Position numbers and translations under genes: made by a program. The notes under the pieces were generated by a model. The model was not told where the DNA came from. It was given only the letters and a program-made list of their open reading frames with translations, and made no database searches. This document shows positions 12,226 through 52,013 of a stretch of DNA of 64,000 bases, in pieces; within the stretch, counting starts at the first letter, position 1, and each line of letters opens with the position of its first letter. The DNA is from Candidatus Woesebacteria bacterium RIFCSPHIGHO2_01_FULL_38_10 (GTDB taxonomy: Bacteria; Patescibacteriota; Microgenomatia; UBA8517). The DNA lies in contig MGGC01000033.1 in NCBI GenBank assembly GCA_001792215.1, positions 2,527-66,526 of the forward strand, given 5' to 3'.

Positions 12226-12936
12226 CTATCTATACTTACTAAAAACCAGAAAATCCTTCCAATTACTTTTATTTAGAGAATCTAGTTTTACTGAATCTCC
12301 AACTTTACACTCACCGATCTTTGTCCTTCTCAAATTTTTTAAATACGCACCACAGCCAAGTTTTCTTCCAATATCACGTCCCAATGCCCGAATATAAGTT
12401 CCAGAAGACACCTTACAATTAATTTTCAGAATCGGATAGTTATAAGAAACTAATTCAATTGAATAAATCGTAATTTTCCTTGGTCTTAGACTTAATCTGA
12501 CTCCTTTTCTTGCCAACTCGTAAGCTTTTCTTCCCTTAATTTTTATTGCGGAATACTCGGGAGGAATCTGTTCTTGCCTTCCGGAAAACAACCTCAAGGT
12601 GTTTCTCACTTCTTTTTCACTTGGAGGCAAAAACCCCTTGGCCTTCGAAATAACAACTCCTTCTGCATCGTCTGTGTCGGTTTCTGCCCCTAAAAAAATT
12701 TCTGCTTGGTAAGTTTTCATCGTCCCTTTCGAAATTACACCTAACTTTTTCGTTGCATCTCTCCCGACCCCGACAATTAAAAGCCCTGTTGCATTCGGAT
12801 CCAAGGTCCCGGCATGTCCAACCTTCGCCTCGCCGAAGCCTTTGTGCAAAGGCAGGTTATCCCTGACAATCTTTCTCACCCTGTCAACAACATCGTGTGA
12901 AGTAATTCCTTTGGGTTTGTCTATCAAAAGGAACAC
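12226..12936 (-). CDS. truB: tRNA pseudouridine(55) synthase.
   Basis: 236 aa with the catalytic-Asp motif GHAGTLDPNATGLLIVGVG. Confidence 0.9.
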   Translation of the reverse strand: MFLLIDKPKGITSHDVVDRVRKIVRDNLPLHKGFGEAKVGHAGTLDPNATGLLIVGVGRDATKKLGVISKGTMKTYQAEIFLGAETDTDDAEGVVISKAKGFLPPSEKEVRNTLRLFSGRQEQIPPEYSAIKIKGRKAYELARKGVRLSLRPRKITIYSIELVSYNYPILKINCKVSSGTYIRALGRDIGRKLGCGAYLKNLRRTKIGECKVGDSVKLDSLNKSNWKDFLVFSKYR

Positions 12937-17693: not shown

Positions 17694-17863
17694 AACCAGT
17701 TCAATTATATGAAATAAAATTACAAATTCAAATTAGAGAGCTTATGACGTCCTCCCCGCGCAGATAGCGCGGGGTTTACTTCTAAAAGAAGACAACATAT
17801 CAGGTTCGATTCATCCCCACCCTGAAAGGGCGGGGTTTTCCCGAAACTGATATAATAAACCCC

Positions 17864-18472
17864 ATGTATGGTGAAGTATTTTTTGACGTCGAAACCAAAA
17901 AATTATTTAGCGATATAAAAGGAGATAACCCGGCAGACTTGGGAGTTTCTATTGTTTCTCTTTACACAAGAATATTAGATAATAGTTATCAGGAAGTTAA
18001 AGGAAAGTTACAAAGTTTTTGGGAACATGACTTTGATCGTATGTGGAAAATCTTTCAGGAGGCCGATCGCATCATAGGTTTTAACTCAATTGCCTTTGAT
18101 GTTCCGGCGCTTTCCCCATATTCCAATTTTTCTTTCAAAAAACTTCCTCATTTTGACATAATGGCAAAGGTCAAAGATATTTTCGGAAAAAGAATAAGTT
18201 TAGACGCAATTGCCAAAGAAACTTTGGATCGAGAAAAAAAAGAAACCGGACTTAAGGCTGTTTATTATTGGGAAAAAAAAGATAATGAAAGTTTAGAAAA
18301 GCTAAAAAAATACTGCGAGGATGATGTTTTAATAACTCGGGATATCTACGACTTCGTCCTGAAAAATGGACACCTTCTTTTTAAAGACAGGTGGAATACT
18401 TTAAGGAAGGTCAAGCTTGATTTTTTTTATCCAGAAAAGTCCTCGAAAGATACACAAATTGGCTTGTTTTGA
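17864..18472 (+). CDS. DEDDy-type 3'-5' exonuclease (RNase D / DnaQ-like fold).
   Basis: 202 aa. Exo I (FDVETKK), Exo II (IGFNSIAFDVPAL) and Exo III (YCEDDVLITRDIY) motifs. Confidence 0.65.
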   Translation: MYGEVFFDVETKKLFSDIKGDNPADLGVSIVSLYTRILDNSYQEVKGKLQSFWEHDFDRMWKIFQEADRIIGFNSIAFDVPALSPYSNFSFKKLPHFDIMAKVKDIFGKRISLDAIAKETLDREKKETGLKAVYYWEKKDNESLEKLKKYCEDDVLITRDIYDFVLKNGHLLFKDRWNTLRKVKLDFFYPEKSSKDTQIGLF

Positions 18473-23892: not shown

Positions 23893-24246
23893 TTGCTGTC
23901 CGAATCCTATTGCTTCACTAATTCCGATTAAAGGCAGATGTGCCTTCTATAAGTAATTCTTACAGAATTTATTCTGATAGTCAAGGGGTAGTGAAAAACC
24001 CTCAAAATTGATAGAATATAAGCATAAAGCCTAAACCCTTTTGGGGCATGGCTAAGAAAACCGATCAAGGTAGGAAGCTCCTCGTCAGAGCACCTTGATC
24101 GGTCATATCCCGAAAGGGGTATGGGTAGTCGAAAGGCTATCGCTGGCGGGGAGCTTTTTGTTTGGATTTGACAATCTCCCCGACACGAAGTTAACATGCA
24201 ACACTCAAGGCTAAATTATCGGTTTATGTCTGAGGGGAGGTGAAAA

Positions 24247-39056: not shown

Positions 39057-39090
39057 AATTGCCTACAGAATAATCAGGTACTAGAGCGGT

Positions 39091-39507
39091 ATGCCCAATC
39101 ATTATCACTTGCTGGTTAAACAGCTTGAAGATAGCGGAGTGAGGAAATTCATATCAAATTTTCAAAATGGATTTGCTAAGTTTTTTAATATTTGAAATAA
39201 AAGACCTGGTCCTTTATTCCAACGACCATTTAAGGCAAAACATCTTTCAAAAGATGAGGAATTTTTGCATGTGTCAAGATATATTCACTTAAACCCTGCG
39301 ACTTCTTTTGAAATGTCTTTAGATAATCTGAAAAATTTAAATATTACTTCACTACCTTTTTATATGAACAATATCCAAAATAACATGATAAAAATTGAAC
39401 CGATCTTAAAATTAATTGGTTCTCCTGAAAAATATTGGCAGTTTTTAGAAAATCAGTTGGATTATCAAAGAAAATTAAATAAAATAAAACATCTAATATT
39501 GGATTAA
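39091..39507 (+). pseudogene. Degenerate IS200/IS605-like (COG1943, Y1 HUH) transposase/RAYT remnant, N-terminally truncated with an in-frame TGA.
   Basis: HuH motif MPNHYHLLV, then GPLFQRPF...EEFLHVSRYIHLNP (catalytic Tyr region). In-frame TGA at 39193-39195. About 60 aa that normally precede the HuH motif are missing. Confidence 0.55.
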
Positions 39508-48673: not shown

Positions 48674-50575
48674 TCAAAAAAACTTTATATCTCTAATCCT
48701 AAGTTCCAAATTTTTTCTGCCATTCCAGTCATTCTCGAAAATATTATAAGCAACATCTATAGTTTTTCTAGTCAAAAACCTTGAAAAAAGCTCTCCGAGT
48801 CCAAATCCAATTACTGCAAAAACTTTCCCGTCCTTTTCAAGGCTAAGTCTCAAATGACTTCCCTCTTTCCCAAGCATTCTTGCATTTAAAACGTTAACAC
48901 TTCTGGTTACAAATGTCGGTGTTGGGTTACCTATTCCTGTTGGCTCAAAACCCTTCAAAGCTTCTGCCAAATCCCAAACGATATTACTAAATTCAAGCTC
49001 AGTATCGATTCTTACTTTCCTTTGTAGAAGCTCATCAGTCAGTAATAATGATGAAATTTTATCAAATTCCTGAGCAAAAACTTCAATTTTATCTGTCTTT
49101 ATCGTAAATCCAGCGGCCATTGAATGACCACCTCCGCCGACTATCAGTGAATCCAATTTTCGGATACTCTCAATTATGTTAAAACCCGGAACGGATCTGG
49201 CCGATGCTTTGGAAAATCCTTCCCCGCGTGAAACCACGACCACAGGTCGCCAGAATTCCTCAACCAGTTTTGAGGCAGCCAAACCGATAACACCCTCATG
49301 ATACGATTCATGCGCCAAAACTATTGCCCCTTGCCAATTTTTCACCCGTGCCTTTTCTCTGGCATGCAAAACCACCTTGTCCAAAATCTTCTGTCTTTGA
49401 GCATTTGTTTTACCCAGTAGTTTAGCTAGTTCAAATGCCCTTTTCTTATTTGTGGTACACAAAAGTCTCAAAGAATCTAGTGCATGCTCCATTCTCCCCA
49501 TCGCATTAATTCTTGGAGCAATTATGTAATTAACTTCGTATGTCCCAATTTTTTTAAGGTTCGGAACCTTTCGCACCTTTTGGCTAGTCAAACCCGACTC
49601 CTGAAACAGTGCAATAAGCCCGGGTCGCTTTGTCTTATTTAAGCTTACCAAACCGTATCTTACTAAAGACCTGTTTGGGCCAATTAAGGGTAACTGATCG
49701 GCAATCGTCCCTATGGCGCAAAGGTCTAAACTTTCATTATTTTCCGTTTGGAGGTTTGGAGTTTTGGTGATCTTTATTTTTCTTTTGATTTCTCTTGCCA
49801 ACACCCAGGCAATTCCCGATCCACTTATCTTTTCCGTATGAATTATCGAATATGCTTTGGGAAGCTTTTTCCCCTTCTTATGATGATCAGTTATTATCAC
49901 ATCAATTCCCAGCTCACTCGCAGCATCAACCGCATCGTGGGCGACAATACCATTATCAACAGTTACTATAACTTTTAATTTTTCATTTTTACTTTTTAAT
50001 TTTTGAATGCTATCTGCATTCAAACCGTATCCTTCAGAAAACCTGTCCGGGATATAAGGAAGAACATTTCGGCTAAAAGAATAAAGACATTCCCAAAGTA
50101 TTGCTGTTGCACAAATTCCATCAGCATCATAGTCTCCATATATAACAATGCCTTCTTCACTCTTAATAGCGTCCTTGATCCGTCTTATAGTCTCTTCGAT
50201 TTCCTTTTGATTTATACTTAAACTTTTTACTGAAATCTTTTCAGGATGAACTGGGTTAAAAAACTCCTCTTTTTCCCTTTTTCCCTTTAACCCTCTATTT
50301 TCCAAAAGTACGTCAATTATCTTACCAACTTTGAACTTACCCAGTATCTCCCACTTTTTATCCGCCTTCGCAGAAAACCTACGAGCTGTCAAGCTCGCGG
50401 ATGAATGCGAAGCATTTTCCGCTTCGGCGGATTTTGCTCCGACGAAGCGGGCGGAGAAGATACCACTGGCGTAAGCCAGTGGAGCTTCATCCTGATTAGT
50501 CATTTTATTCACGCTTAAAGTATAATGGTAACAAATGAAAATAAACTTACCAAAAAAAGTAAAACAAATCATCAA
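48674..50575 (-). CDS. recJ: Single-stranded-DNA-specific exonuclease RecJ; the listed N-terminus includes a GC-rich, possibly non-native segment.
   Basis: DHH motifs (IYGDYDADGICATAIL, VIITDHHKK), DHHA1 domain (GGGHSMAAG), OB-fold C-terminus. The conserved RecJ N-terminus (KKWEILGK...) is preceded by about 45 aa encoded by a GC-rich hairpin-rich stretch. Confidence 0.85.
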   Translation of the reverse strand: MMICFTFFGKFIFICYHYTLSVNKMTNQDEAPLAYASGIFSARFVGAKSAEAENASHSSASLTARRFSAKADKKWEILGKFKVGKIIDVLLENRGLKGKREKEEFFNPVHPEKISVKSLSINQKEIEETIRRIKDAIKSEEGIVIYGDYDADGICATAILWECLYSFSRNVLPYIPDRFSEGYGLNADSIQKLKSKNEKLKVIVTVDNGIVAHDAVDAASELGIDVIITDHHKKGKKLPKAYSIIHTEKISGSGIAWVLAREIKRKIKITKTPNLQTENNESLDLCAIGTIADQLPLIGPNRSLVRYGLVSLNKTKRPGLIALFQESGLTSQKVRKVPNLKKIGTYEVNYIIAPRINAMGRMEHALDSLRLLCTTNKKRAFELAKLLGKTNAQRQKILDKVVLHAREKARVKNWQGAIVLAHESYHEGVIGLAASKLVEEFWRPVVVVSRGEGFSKASARSVPGFNIIESIRKLDSLIVGGGGHSMAAGFTIKTDKIEVFAQEFDKISSLLLTDELLQRKVRIDTELEFSNIVWDLAEALKGFEPTGIGNPTPTFVTRSVNVLNARMLGKEGSHLRLSLEKDGKVFAVIGFGLGELFSRFLTRKTIDVAYNIFENDWNGRKNLELRIRDIKFF

Positions 50576-52013
50576 AAATCTAGAAGAAAAAGGGGTTGAA
50601 ATCTACATTGTCGGCGGGGCAGTTCGCGACATTCTAATGGCAAAGTTAGTATATGATTGGGATTTTACAACAAATGCAACGCCAGATACTATCCAAAAAT
50701 TATTTCCTGATTCCTTCTATGACAATAAATTCGGAACCGTTGGAATTCCAAGCGAAGTTGAGGGAGAAAGATCTTATGAAATTACGACCTTCAGAACCGA
50801 ACATGGGTATTCTGATGCCAGACGGCCTGACAAAGTTGAATGGGGGAAAACTTTGGAAGAAGATCTCAAAAGACGAGATTTTACGATTAATGCAATGGCC
50901 CTTCGACTCACTTCGTTCGCTCAGAGTAAACCCGCAAAACACTCATCGGGTGACCGGCTTGTCCGCCGAAGCCTCGGCAAAGGCGGAGTGGACTCCCGTG
51001 GGGCAGACGCTTGGAACGAAAACGAAGCAGAGGTTGAATTAATAGATCTTTATGCCGGCAAGAAAGATCTTGATAATAAACTCATCCGAGCAGTTGGTGA
51101 TCCGAACGAGCGATTCTCAGAGGATGCTCTTCGTATGATGCGGGCAGTAAGAATTGCCTCAGAACTTAATTTTAAGATCCAGCCGGCAACCCTTACAGCA
51201 ATCCAAAAAAACGTTAGTTTAATCGCAAAAATTGCAAGAGAAAGAGTCAGGGATGAACTTCTTAAAATACTTTCCTCTCCGCACGCTTACCAAGGAATGA
51301 CACTTTTCCGAGAAACTGGTCTGATGGAAAAAATCTTGCCGGAAATGCAACAAACATTCGGGGTAGATCAAAAGTCGCCGGGAAGACACCACATCCACGA
51401 CGTGGGAACACACCTGATGCTTTCCTTAAAACATGTGCTCCAAAGAAACCCCGATCCCATCACAAGATTTGCGACTCTTATACACGATATTGGAAAGCCG
51501 CACACGAAAAAAGTGTTGGAAAACGGTGTTATCACTTTCTACAATCATGAAATGGTCAGTGCAAAGATAGCCAGAAGAATTGCAGCAAGACTTAAGTTTT
51601 CCAAAAAGCAAAGTGAAAAACTCTATAAACTAGTTCGTTGGCATCAATTCTCGGTTGATGAAACCCAAACAGATTCGGCCTTAAGACGCTTTATAAGAAA
51701 TGTTGGAGTAGAAACCGTTCTGGACATCTTGGATTTAAGAGTCGGTGATAGATTAGGAGGAGGAGCAAGAGAAACCTCATGGCGATTGGAAGAATTTAAA
51801 AAGCGTCTAATTGAGGTCCAAAAACAACCATTTACAGTTCATGATTTAAAAATCTCAGGCTTTGATGTCATGGAGGCATTCAAAATTCCCCCAGGACCGA
51901 AAGTAGGAGAGGTGCTAGAAAAACTTTATAAGGAGGTAGTTGAGAAAAAAATTGAAAACGAAAAGGACGCACTCTTAAAACGCTTAGGGGTCATTTCAAA
52001 ACCTCACATCTAA
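50535..52013 (+). CDS. cca: CCA-adding enzyme (tRNA nucleotidyltransferase, Pol-beta head plus HD domain).
   Basis: 492 aa. GGAVRDILM, RRDFTINAMA, HD region (HHIHDVGTHL...IHDIGKP). Contains a roughly 42-aa GC-rich insertion after RRDFTINAMA. Confidence 0.85.
   Translation: MKINLPKKVKQIIKNLEEKGVEIYIVGGAVRDILMAKLVYDWDFTTNATPDTIQKLFPDSFYDNKFGTVGIPSEVEGERSYEITTFRTEHGYSDARRPDKVEWGKTLEEDLKRRDFTINAMALRLTSFAQSKPAKHSSGDRLVRRSLGKGGVDSRGADAWNENEAEVELIDLYAGKKDLDNKLIRAVGDPNERFSEDALRMMRAVRIASELNFKIQPATLTAIQKNVSLIAKIARERVRDELLKILSSPHAYQGMTLFRETGLMEKILPEMQQTFGVDQKSPGRHHIHDVGTHLMLSLKHVLQRNPDPITRFATLIHDIGKPHTKKVLENGVITFYNHEMVSAKIARRIAARLKFSKKQSEKLYKLVRWHQFSVDETQTDSALRRFIRNVGVETVLDILDLRVGDRLGGGARETSWRLEEFKKRLIEVQKQPFTVHDLKISGFDVMEAFKIPPGPKVGEVLEKLYKEVVEKKIENEKDALLKRLGVISKPHI

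What the first reader, a model, noticed from the sequence alone, without database searches (positions are those of the whole stretch)
50361..51035. GC-rich hairpin-rich in-frame inserts inside recJ (N-terminus) and cca
Two segments of about 130 nt (50361-50492 in recJ on the minus strand, about 50901-51035 in cca on the plus strand) are far more GC-rich than the surrounding AT-rich coding DNA. They are packed with short inverted repeats, for example cgagctgtcaagctcg, cgaagcattttccgcttcg, ccactggcgtaagccagtgg, and cttcgtt...aacgaag flanking the cca insert. They also share the short palindromic motif ccgcttcggcgg / ccgccgaagcc. Both are in frame and encode Ala/Ser/Arg/Gly-rich peptides. In cca the insert sits after the conserved RRDFTINAMA motif, where CCA enzymes normally have a short loop. 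In recJ it lies between the only available ATG and the conserved N-terminus (KKWEILGK). This resembles small palindromic mobile inserts (REP/MITE-like) tolerated in coding regions. A decayed RAYT/IS200-like gene lies 11 kb away.
Basis: seen in the sequence. Interest (0 to 1): 0.55.

Follow-up and report, generated by a model that had tools for sequence, protein, structure and literature searches.

The report
In-frame palindromic mobile element in recJ
The GC-rich stretch at the start of recJ is one copy of an apparently undescribed, hairpin-forming mobile DNA element that sits in frame inside many unrelated genes of CPR bacteria, much like the Rickettsia palindromic elements; the cca stretch is an older, fast-evolving loop expansion and not the same element.

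Summary
Both segments are strong GC islands and both are in frame.

**recJ segment**
- It is 129 nt (window 50360-50488, minus strand), lying between codons 5 and 6.
- It is the most stable 130-nt fold in the 64-kb window (z about -6).
- It is absent from recJ in about 55 syntenic relatives.
- It belongs to a dispersed repeat family. I recovered 13 DNA copies and about 25 host proteins, including Adk, ribosomal protein S8, RNase P protein, PIN, NUDIX, SDR and a RAYT-like gene, from Woesebacteria, Nealsonbacteria and other metagenomic contigs that look like CPR genomes.
- Every DNA copy is flanked by NAT^AAA and has a length divisible by three (126, 129, 144 or 159 nt).
- Four of the six reading frames are largely free of stop codons and all four are used by host genes. 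The hairpins are kept by compensatory changes.
- It behaves like a Rickettsia palindromic element. It lacks the inverted ends and target duplication of a classical MITE.

**cca segment (50901-51038)**
- It is not significantly structured and is not a member of this family.
- It is partly orthologous to inserts in related cca genes, at a loop that is a hot spot for hairpin repeats.
- It carries a nested 30-nt GC hairpin that has a paralog in another gene of a sibling genome.

The parts
50360..50488 (-). Inserted element, 129 nt = 43 codons (EAPLAY...SAKAD). It is a member of a dispersed family whose common length is 126 nt.
   Evidence: Alignment of 13 DNA copies. nhmmer E = 1e-40 for the window copy. 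Absent from recJ of about 55 syntenic relatives.
50489..50491 (-). Left flank GAT (codon 5, Asp). This is the NAT half of the constant NAT^AAA junction.
   Evidence: The AT dinucleotide precedes the element in 13 of 13 DNA copies. N, D or Y precedes EAPL in all frame-A proteins.
50357..50359 (-). Right flank AAA (Lys). It is probably a host codon: relatives read M-x-N-Q-x-K-K-W.
   Evidence: AAA follows the element in 13 of 13 DNA copies. RecJ N-termini of relatives. The PIN_3 profile ends at the junction.
50463..50482 (.). Hairpin H1, CCACTGGC-GTAA-GCCAGTGG (plus-strand reading).
   Evidence: Folds. Helix 2 of the family has 4 pairs with compensatory changes.
50419..50450 (.). Central hairpin P3, CCGCTTCG-GCGGA...TCCG-ACGAAGCGG. 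It contains the 11-mer shared with cca. In three other copies its tip carries a 33-nt nested hairpin.
50367..50412 (.). Stem P4 (TTCGCAG/TGCGAAG) enclosing hairpin H4 (CGAGCT-GTCA-AGCTCG). The window copy has 3 extra nt here.
48674..50503 (-). recJ coding sequence, 609 aa. The start is homologous to that of relatives.
   Evidence: This exact 609-aa product is on 9 JGI/ENA contigs, and a 632-aa call is recorded under two NCBI protein accessions.
50535..52013 (+). cca coding sequence, 492 aa, class II CCA-adding enzyme with an HD domain.
50901..51038 (+). Variable expansion segment of cca: 46 codons where distant relatives have 4-6. It is composite and partly orthologous to relatives.
   Evidence: Strain variants differ almost only in this segment.
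50901..50942 (+). 5' block of the cca segment, orthologous to the cca genes of L001/L002 (88% identity) and L068.
   Evidence: A 25-nt paralog lies just 3' of cca in L080.
50957..50986 (+). Nested 30-nt GC hairpin, GCTTGTCCGCCGAAGCCTCGGCAAAGGCGG, coding for RRSLGKGG.
   Evidence: A 27/30 paralog, in the same peptide frame, lies in a PEGA-domain gene of a sibling Woesebacteria MAG (L092 13909-13938).
39085..39507 (+). Truncated RAYT/IS200-like Y1 transposase pseudogene. It is a candidate for the enzyme type that moves the element, but no link is shown.
   Evidence: An intact homolog elsewhere (P0129, L091) itself carries a copy of the element.

Best explanation
**recJ.** The recJ segment is one copy of a non-autonomous, strongly hairpin-forming repeat element that is dispersed among CPR (Patescibacteria) genomes.
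- The inserted DNA reads GAAGCTCC...GCGAAGGCGGAT and is typically 126 nt long.
- It sits between an NAT and an AAA, has no inverted ends and makes no target duplication.
- Its length is always a multiple of three, and four of its six reading frames are largely free of stop codons.
- It can therefore land inside genes, at surface loops or at protein termini, and be translated as an extra peptide of about 42 residues without destroying the protein.
- In this genome it landed between codons 5 and 6 of recJ. It is read through as EAPLAYASGIFSARFVGAKSAEAENASHSSASLTARRFSAKAD.

**Shown.** Family membership, multiple copies, the insertion site, absence from orthologs, conserved structure with compensatory changes, and intact host reading frames.

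**Inferred.**
- That the peptide is actually made.
- That movement goes through single-stranded hairpin DNA handled by a Y1 (IS200/IS605 or RAYT-type) transposase. On its own I give this step about 0.3.

**cca.** The cca segment is a different thing. It is an old expansion of a permissive beta-hairpin turn after motif B and is under relaxed constraint. In Woesebacteria this turn has repeatedly taken up or grown hairpin repeats. The window's version is a composite that includes at least one short GC hairpin also found elsewhere.
For: **Dispersed copies**
- A peptide-pattern scan of JGI metagenomes found the element inside adk and inside a membrane-protein gene, the latter in the opposite orientation.
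- Protein searches found it in 24 proteins, 16 of them with E < 1e-3. Hosts include S8, RNase P protein, PIN, NUDIX, ASCH, SDR, GT2, a methyltransferase, a GalU-like enzyme, a pilin leader and a Y1_Tnp protein.
- There are 13 DNA copies with nhmmer E between 1e-32 and 1e-44. Two of them lie on one 9.7-kb contig, and one of those is intergenic.
- NCBI accession series suggest that one MAG carries both the recJ copy and the P0134 copy.

**Insertion and not inheritance**
- About 55 syntenic recJ genes lack it and read M-x-N-Q-x-K-K-W.
- In S8 and Adk the element replaces a short loop.

**Anatomy**
- Flanks are NAT and AAA in 13 of 13 copies.
- Core lengths are 126, 129, 144 and 159 nt, all divisible by three.
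- Among the 13 copies, frames A, D, B and C are open in 12, 9, 9 and 5 copies, and the other two frames in none.
- Hosts use all four open frames.

**Structure**
- z about -6.
- 95.8% of pair cells form a standard pair.
- 9 pairs carry changes on both sides, against 3.5 +/- 1.2 in shuffles (0 of 500 as high) and at most 3 in slid controls.

**Not an artefact**
- The recJ product with the insert is on 9 JGI/ENA contigs and is recorded under two NCBI protein accessions.

**cca**
- z = +0.3, and no family hit.
- Orthologous blocks are shared with L001, L003 and L068.
- Loop length across relatives runs from 4 to 46 aa.
- Hairpin inserts in relatives have paralogs elsewhere.
- The nested GC hairpin has a paralog.
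- Strain variation is concentrated in the insert.
Against: - No empty-site allele of this very recJ was seen, so the exact ends of the element and the status of AT and AAA (target or element) are inferred from relatives only.
- Copies were found mostly through protein searches, which biases the sample towards coding copies. The true ratio of coding to intergenic copies is unknown.
- Copy number looks low: 1 in this 64-kb window, 0 in 1.43 Mb of other Woesebacteria loci, and only 3 hits among 1.84 billion representative proteins.
- No transposase is shown to be linked. The RAYT-like gene in the window is a pseudogene and scores below the Pfam cut-off. The RAYT-like gene carrying a copy may be just another target.
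- The conserved AAA 3' of the insertion point is not what the IS200/IS605 model predicts.
- Translation of the insert is not demonstrated.
- For cca, growth in place by slippage or template switching explains much of the data as well as insertion does.
Confidence: 0.82

Rival explanations
1. The cca segment, and the small nested hairpins seen inside copies of the recJ-type element, grew in place. They arose by replication slippage and template switching at existing hairpins and not by insertion of mobile elements. On this view the cca loop is simply an unconstrained turn that accumulates palindromic filler.
For: - The cca segment is partly orthologous among relatives.
- It shows no significant fold.
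- It varies mostly by indels and point changes, even between strains.
- Many relatives carry arms made of tandem heptamers, which is typical of slippage.
- Nested hairpins of 18 and 33 nt sit in or beside the hairpins of the recJ-type element.
Against: - Several cca insert types have paralogs at unrelated places in the same or other genomes: L047 12667-12745, L009 12727-12799, L052 4100-4167 and L059 8470-8508.
- The 30-nt GC hairpin has a paralog at L092 13909-13938, and the 5' block at L080 11362-11386. This points to dispersed repeats.
- The closest relatives, at about 70% protein identity, carry unrelated insert sequences at the same site.
Confidence: 0.4
2. The recJ-type element is primarily a functional structured RNA, for example a regulatory or stabilising mRNA element or a small RNA gene. 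On this view selection acts on the RNA, and the in-frame property is secondary.
For: - The fold is very stable, with covariation.
- The hairpin loops read GNRA- or GNNA-like (GUAA) on one strand.
- The element sits 16 nt after the recJ start codon and just upstream of the divergent cca promoter.
Against: - No Rfam family matches, even at E <= 10.
- Copies occur in both orientations relative to the host gene and at arbitrary positions: N-terminus, internal loops, C-terminus and intergenic.
- G.U and A.C mismatches in the stems are equally frequent, 10 each, so neither strand is favoured as RNA.
- Lengths are kept divisible by three, and frameshifts are compensated within copies. This indicates selection on translation.
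Confidence: 0.08
3. Both segments are vertically inherited, lineage-specific protein extensions or linkers that have a function at the protein level.
For: - Both segments are in frame and free of stop codons.
- The cca segment shares short peptide motifs with relatives, such as AQGKP.KH and DAW.E.EAE.
Against: - The recJ segment is absent from about 55 relatives.
- The same DNA is translated in four different frames in unrelated proteins. A protein-level function cannot explain that.
- The cca segment ranges from 4 to 46 aa with unrelated sequences among close relatives, and strain variation is concentrated in it.
Confidence: 0.04
4. The inserts are removed before or during translation, as an intron, an intein or a translational bypass, so the proteins are unchanged.
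For: GC-rich hairpin inserts in AT-rich coding DNA resemble the bypassed 'byp' elements of yeast mitochondria. This comparison is from my own knowledge and was not tested here.
Against: - At 129 nt the insert is too small for a group I or II intron or for an intein, and no intron family matches.
- Reading frames are kept open, lengths are divisible by three, and internal +1/-1 shifts are compensated in several copies. That would be unnecessary if the segment were removed.
Confidence: 0.03
5. The segments are assembly or chimera artefacts.
For: The source is a metagenome-assembled genome.
Against: - The identical RecJ with the insert is on 9 JGI/ENA contigs and is recorded under two NCBI protein accessions. 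The CCA with its insert is on 9 contigs from several sources.
- Family copies come from independent projects: JGI, ENA, NCBI and Logan.
Confidence: 0.01

Closest known systems
Rickettsia palindromic elements (RPEs)
   Same: - Palindromic repeats of about 100-150 bp, more GC-rich than an AT-rich reduced genome.
- Dispersed in many copies and inserted in frame into unrelated, often essential, genes.
- Translated as extra peptides, and no transposase is known for them (review PMC10969869).
- That RPE insertions lie at protein surfaces is from my own knowledge.

Here the element is likewise in frame in RecJ, Adk, S8, RNase P protein and others. It has open frames, replaces short loops or sits at protein termini, and has a conserved hairpin fold.
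   Different: - Unrelated host phylum (CPR/Patescibacteria) and apparently low copy number.
- Whether the sequence is related to any RPE family was not tested.
- Strict NAT^AAA junctions and lengths divisible by three in all 13 copies.
- Four frames are used.
- Nested hairpin additions of 18-33 nt.
- Near-identical copies occur in distant CPR lineages (Woesebacteria and Nealsonbacteria). I read this as horizontal spread, which is an inference.
IS200/IS605-derived non-autonomous elements (PATEs) and REP/BIME with RAYT
   Same: - No terminal inverted repeats and no target duplication.
- Subterminal hairpins.
- A fixed short sequence 5' of the left end (AT), and an element end that mimics it (GGAT).
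- A Y1 HUH transposase relic in the window, and an intact homolog elsewhere.
   Different: - No demonstrated link to a transposase.
- The conserved AAA 3' of the insertion point is not expected in this model.
- REPs are 20-40 nt, extragenic and start with a conserved tetranucleotide (GTAG). This element is 126 nt, often lies inside genes, and has no conserved GTAG.
Classical bacterial MITEs (Correia, ERIC, RUP, Nezha and similar)
   Same: Short, structured, non-autonomous dispersed repeats that sometimes make in-frame fusions with genes (PMC10969869).
   Different: The defining inverted terminal repeats and target-site duplication are absent here.
GC clusters and 'byp' elements of yeast mitochondria
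   Same: GC-rich hairpin elements that spread in very AT-rich genomes and can sit inside coding sequences. This comparison is from my own knowledge.
   Different: They occur in eukaryotic organelles. Byp elements are skipped by the ribosome and need not keep the reading frame. Here the frame is kept.

Membership tests
In-frame palindromic repeat elements (RPE-like, by behaviour) | Dispersed, multi-copy sequence family | tested here: met
   13 DNA copies and about 25 host proteins. Two copies lie on one 9.7-kb contig.
In-frame palindromic repeat elements (RPE-like, by behaviour) | Palindromic or hairpin structure conserved among copies | tested here: met
   z about -6. 95.8% of pair cells form a standard pair. 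9 pairs are compensatory against 3.5 in shuffles.
In-frame palindromic repeat elements (RPE-like, by behaviour) | Inserted in frame in unrelated genes whose domains stay intact | tested here: met
   RecJ, Adk, S8, PIN, NUDIX, SDR and others keep their Pfam domains. Core lengths are all divisible by three.
In-frame palindromic repeat elements (RPE-like, by behaviour) | Absent from the orthologous site in relatives | tested here: met
   About 55 syntenic recJ genes lack it.
Rickettsia RPE families (by descent) | Sequence similarity to RPE-1 to RPE-10 | not tested
   No RPE sequences were available in the tools. The host phylum is unrelated, so common descent is not claimed.
Classical MITE | Terminal inverted repeats | tested here: not met
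   The left end GAAGCTCCAC and the reverse complement of the right end, ATCCGCCTTC, do not match.
Classical MITE | Target-site duplication | tested here: not met
   The flanks are NAT and AAA. The base before AT varies (A, G or T) while the element ends in GAT, so at most the AT is repeated.
REP/BIME with RAYT | Short (20-40 nt) extragenic palindromes with a conserved 5' tetranucleotide | tested here: not met
   The element is 126 nt and mostly inside genes in this sample. GTAG is present only in the window copy.
REP/BIME with RAYT | RAYT gene in the genome, flanked by the repeats | tested here: inconclusive
   The window has a RAYT-like pseudogene 11 kb away with no copy beside it. The intact homolog in L091 has a copy inside it and is flanked by a different short repeat.
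IS200/IS605-derived element (PATE) | No inverted ends, no duplication, fixed short target 5' of the left end, subterminal hairpins | tested here: met
   AT precedes all 13 DNA copies, and N, D or Y precedes EAPL in the frame-A proteins. H1 starts 8 nt from the left end, and the closing stem ends 1 nt from the right end.
IS200/IS605-derived element (PATE) | Mobilised by a Y1 transposase; a full-length parent element has the same ends | not testable with these tools
   No parent element was found in 1.6 Mb of held sequence. Whole-genome scans and biochemistry are needed.
Known structured RNA families (Rfam 15), including group I/II introns and ribozymes | Match to a covariance model | tested here: not met
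   No match at the gathering threshold, and only noise at E <= 10.
recJ-type element family, applied to the cca segment | Similarity to the family profile | tested here: not met
   nhmmer with --max at E <= 100 gives no hit at 50901-51038. Only an 11-mer is shared.

The most novel reading that the evidence does not exclude
CPR bacteria, which have almost no intergenic space, may host a class of hairpin elements that has adapted to living inside genes. Its features would be a length divisible by three, four open frames, and a preference for NAT^AAA sites that are common in Lys/Asn/Asp-rich surface loops. The elements would be moved as single-stranded DNA by RAYT or IS200-type Y1 enzymes and exchanged between distant CPR lineages. 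Together with the smaller hairpin repeats that pile up in the cca loop, and that nest inside the element itself, this would be a general route by which new peptide segments are added to essential proteins of these organisms, including S8, RNase P protein, Adk, RecJ and CCA.
Probability: 0.3. Interest if true: 0.75.

Novelty: new member of a known kind. Interest (0 to 1): 0.6.

Why it matters
- In-frame selfish palindromic DNA has been a curiosity tied mainly to Rickettsia. Finding an unrelated family with the same lifestyle in CPR bacteria suggests convergent evolution in small, AT-rich, gene-dense genomes.
- The family has sharply defined ends, a fixed junction and a conserved fold. That makes its mechanism of movement testable.
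- It is a practical warning for annotation. Gene callers placed different starts on this recJ, and such inserts inflate "lineage-specific" protein segments and can mislead alignments and phylogenies of marker genes such as S8 and Adk.
- It offers natural experiments on which loops of essential proteins tolerate about 40 extra residues.

Tried and rejected
- **Local similarity.** blastn of both segments against the window and against 1.43 Mb of related Woesebacteria loci found no paralogs of the recJ element. For cca it found orthologous hits plus one marginal 24-nt match outside cca (L080).
- **Rfam.** Nothing at the gathering threshold or at E <= 10.
- **Viral contigs.** A 19-nt right-end probe hit one locus, seen in two related contigs, over 27 nt only. 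That is compatible with chance and it is not a tRNA. A two-block probe found nothing.
- **Representative-protein search with the insert peptide.** Only 3 hits, as expected when insert-bearing proteins are hidden behind cluster representatives that lack the insert.
- **Source contigs.** The look-up of contigs encoding the NCBI RecJ product (P0147) found no record.
- **RAYT link.** No RAYT-like gene lies beside the other copies, though those contigs are short. No inverted repeats related to the element flank the pseudogene. An apparent extra partial copy in L091 (1082-1101) is the P-loop coding region of a kinase gene, so it is coincidence.
- **Inverted ends or target duplication.** None found.
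- **One family for both segments.** The idea that the shared 11-mer makes the two segments one family was rejected.
- **Literature.** No paper on RPE-, MITE- or REP-like elements in CPR was found in the searchable library. That library is incomplete.

Full report
**Source and setting.**
- The window comes from a CPR bacterium, Candidatus Woesebacteria RIFCSPHIGHO2_01_FULL_38_10. Its CCA protein is 100% identical to the NCBI entry. Overall GC is 38%.
- recJ (minus strand, 48674-50503) and cca (plus strand, 50535-52013) are divergent neighbours. This arrangement is conserved in relatives.

**Check of the observation.**
- Both segments are real GC islands. In 120-nt windows they reach 0.575 and 0.617, against a mean of 0.380 and SD of 0.056.
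- The quoted inverted repeats are present.
- The two segments differ in structure.
  - The recJ segment is the most stable 130-nt fold of about 4,250 windows tested: -65 kcal/mol against means of -20 to -23 and SD 6-7. Its z-score is -6.1 or -6.3 on either strand.
  - The cca segment folds no better than dinucleotide shuffles (z = +0.29; -0.04).
- Both segments are in frame and all host domains are intact.
- The shared motif is one 11-mer, TCCGCCGAAGC. It is read in different frames in the two genes.

**The recJ segment is an insertion.**
- The two closest relatives start MNNNSLGWEIL and MRMKSNNYRWEIL.
- Across about 55 syntenic loci the N-terminus reads M-x-N-Q-x-K-[KR]-W-E-[IV]-L, for example MVNQTKKWEIL and MTNQTKRWEVL. 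None has an extension like the window's.
- The window reads MTNQD + 43 residues + KKWEIL. So 129 nt (50360-50488) lie between codon 5 (GAT) and codon 6 (AAA).
- The homologous start is the ATG at 50503.
- The 609-aa product with the insert is on 9 JGI/ENA contigs. A 632-aa call is recorded under two NCBI protein accessions. It is therefore not an assembly artefact.

**It belongs to a dispersed family.**
- There are no paralogs in the window or in 1.43 Mb of related loci.
- Back-translated pieces of the insert peptide, scanned over JGI metagenomes, found the same element in two places. One is the LID domain of an adenylate kinase (L084). The other, in the opposite orientation and another frame, is a 596-aa membrane protein (L085).
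- A four-frame query and then a four-frame profile found 24 proteins, 16 of them with E < 1e-3. Their sequences show the element translated in all four open frames:
  - frame A: EAPLA..SGIFSARFVGAKSAEAEN.SHSS...RFSAKAD
  - frame D: MKLHWLTPVVSSP..SSEQNPPKRK.LRIHPRAY.RGFLRRRI
  - frame B: LSAFAEN.....DECE.F.ASADFAPTKRAEKIPLA.ASGAS
  - frame C: YPPSQKT..VS..MNAK.F.LRRILLRRS.RRRYHWR.PVELH
- Host proteins include:
  - ribosomal protein S8, RNase P protein and Adk;
  - a PIN toxin, two NUDIX-related sites and an ASCH protein;
  - a short-chain dehydrogenase of Nealsonbacteria, a GT2 glycosyltransferase and a methyltransferase;
  - a GalU-like enzyme, where the element's own ATG serves as the start codon;
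  - a type IV pilin leader, and a RAYT-like Y1 transposase.
- Fetching the contigs gave 13 DNA copies with nhmmer E between 1e-32 and 1e-44. Two are on one 9.7-kb contig, and one of those is intergenic, next to what look like tRNA genes.
- NCBI accession series (OGM60794/5 for recJ and cca, OGM61058 for P0134) suggest that one MAG carries two diverged copies.

**Anatomy of the element.**
- The alignment gives sharp ends. All 13 copies read N-A-T | GAAGCYCC ... GCGAAGGCGGAT | A-A-A.
- Comparison with uninserted relatives suggests that the NAT and AAA codons belong to the host. The evidence is the RecJ N-termini and the PIN_3 profile ending at the junction. In S8 and Adk the element replaces a short loop, which does not fix the exact ends.
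- On that reading the inserted DNA is 126 nt. It is 129 nt in the window copy and in L092. It is 144 nt with an 18-nt nested palindrome and 159 nt with a 33-nt nested hairpin. All of these lengths are divisible by three.
- In some proteins the base after AA varies. The constant part of the right flank is therefore AA(A).
- There are no terminal inverted repeats and no target duplication beyond a possible AT.
- Frames A, D, B and C are open in 12, 9, 9 and 5 of the 13 copies. The other two frames are never open.
- Two copies carry a -1 and a +1 indel that compensate each other.
- The consensus fold has an outer left stem enclosing hairpin H1, then a closing stem holding a long central hairpin and a second stem-loop.
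  - 95.8% of pair cells form a standard pair.
  - 9 pairs have changes on both sides, against 3.5 +/- 1.2 in shuffles (0 of 500 as high) and at most 3 in slid controls.
- G.T and A.C mismatches in the stems are equally common, 10 each. This gives no sign that one strand is selected as RNA. It fits a constraint at the DNA level or on both strands.

**Interpretation for recJ.**
- The data fit a non-autonomous mobile element that survives inside genes because it does not break the reading frame. This is the behaviour described for Rickettsia palindromic elements (review PMC10969869).
- The element is not a classical MITE (no inverted ends, no duplication) and not a REP (too long, and often inside genes).
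- The lack of inverted ends and duplication, the fixed AT 5' of the left end, a right end that mimics it (GGAT) and the subterminal hairpins resemble IS200/IS605-derived elements moved as single-stranded DNA by Y1 transposases.
- The window has a truncated RAYT-like pseudogene at 39085-39507, and an intact homolog elsewhere carries a copy. No functional link is shown, and the conserved AAA on the right flank is not predicted by that model. I rate this step at about 0.3.
- That the insert is translated is inferred from the kept frames and was not observed.

**The cca segment.**
- Against solved CCA enzymes it replaces a turn of about 5 residues after motif B.
- Among 120 Woesebacteria orthologs and 79 genomic loci the turn is 4-6 aa in most distant relatives, for example LDKNLK. 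It is 10-46 aa in many closer relatives, and the window's is the longest.
- The window's segment shares its first 42 nt with L001/L002 (88% identity) and with L068. Its last part (DAWxExEAE) is shared with L003. It is therefore partly inherited.
- It is not detected by the recJ-family profile.
- Many relatives instead carry long hairpins whose arms are tandem heptamers (AGAGTAA, AGTACAA, CTTGTCA), with z down to -5.4. Several of these have paralogs elsewhere, both intergenic and inside other genes.
- The window's segment contains a 30-nt GC hairpin (50957-50986) with a 27/30 paralog in a PEGA-domain gene of a sibling MAG, read in the same peptide frame. Its 5' block has a 25-nt paralog next to cca in L080.
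- Near-identical strain variants of this CCA differ almost only inside the segment. This indicates relaxed constraint.
- One quarter of the uninserted loops contain ATAAA, often as GAT AAA (Asp-Lys), which is the junction preferred by the recJ-type element. About 0.1 per loop is expected by chance. This is a possible reason for the hot spot, but I give it little weight.
- I conclude that the cca segment is an old composite expansion at a permissive, repeat-prone loop. Whether each piece arrived by insertion or grew in place remains open. The rival of growth in place is rated 0.4.

**Comparison and novelty.**
- By behaviour the recJ element matches the RPE paradigm. Its relation by sequence to RPE families was not tested. 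The host is an unrelated phylum.
- I found no report of such elements in CPR bacteria in the searchable literature. That library is incomplete, so this is not proof of novelty.
- I classify it as a new member of a known kind.

**Limits.**
- Only 64 kb of the source genome was available.
- Copies were found mostly through protein searches, which biases the sample towards coding copies.
- Copy number per genome, strand bias, empty sites and expression could not be examined.

Noticed in passing
window 24028-24141 (+): LOOT RNA (Rfam RF03000), 86.9 bits against a gathering score of 46.4. It is one of the few GC-rich, strongly folded spots in the window.
   Followed up: no
window 17700-17870 (-): An intergenic stretch that folds at -60.5 kcal/mol with z = -4.84. 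No Rfam family fits; the best is HgcC at 23 bits against a 50-bit cut-off. It may be an unannotated structured RNA.
   Followed up: partly
window 39085-39507 (+): A truncated RAYT/IS200-like Y1 transposase pseudogene with NHYHLLV and YIHLNP motifs and one in-frame stop. Pfam Y1_Tnp scores 18.9 bits, below the cut-off. P0129 (L091) is an intact homolog.
   Followed up: partly
window about 12790-12835 (-), inside truB (ORF 12226..12936): A small GC-rich hairpin stretch coding for DNLPLHKGFGEA, which contains GGCTTCGGCG. From memory, TruB proteins have a shorter link here. It may be another mini hairpin insert.
   Followed up: no
L052 10367-10444, L031 4707-4781, L047 10367-10450, L063 10367-10441, L007 3559-3633 (cca loop of relatives): In-frame inserts that are long hairpins whose arms are tandem heptamers (AGAGTAA, AGTACAA, CTTGTCA). 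The two arms translate into 'mirror' peptides, for example VTSNK...LVTCH. z-scores range from about -2.5 to -5.4.
   Followed up: partly
L047 12667-12745, L009 12727-12799, L052 4100-4167, L059 8470-8508: Paralogs of the heptamer-hairpin cca inserts at other places, both intergenic and inside other reading frames. This points to at least one further dispersed hairpin-repeat family in Woesebacteria.
   Followed up: partly
L092 13909-13938 (PEGA-domain gene) versus window 50957-50986: A 30-nt GC hairpin shared at 27/30 between unrelated genes of sibling genomes, read in the same peptide frame (RRSLGxGG). In L092 it is flanked by a 10-nt direct repeat, ATTGGAAATT.
   Followed up: partly
L088 5600-5764 and 6823-6987; L089 501-665; L091 676-825: Copies of the recJ-type element carry nested extra hairpins: 33 nt at the tip of the central hairpin, or 18 nt after H1. 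These additions are always divisible by three. Protein P0133 has further nested pieces, including the peptide PEPVEGR.
   Followed up: partly
L091 117-176, 586-622, 985-1005: A short repeat, TTGATTCCCGGWATC, occurs several times upstream of, inside and downstream of the RAYT-like gene. This resembles a REP-RAYT arrangement. It is unrelated in sequence to the 126-nt element.
   Followed up: no
P0149-P0152 versus P0001 (CCA strain variants): Among variants that are otherwise nearly identical over the length they cover, almost all amino-acid differences fall inside the 46-residue insert.
   Followed up: yes
window 50392-50390 (-): The 3 extra nt in the window copy create an in-frame TTG inside the element (..AGC TTG ACA..). 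The recorded calls for this recJ are 609 aa and 632 aa. A 572-aa call from this TTG is not on record.
   Followed up: partly
L097 11242-11269 and L098 2564-2590 (IMG/VR contigs): A 27-nt match to the right end of the element (TTTTCTGCGAAGGCGGATA) in two related viral contigs. It is not a full copy and not a tRNA, and is probably chance.
   Followed up: partly
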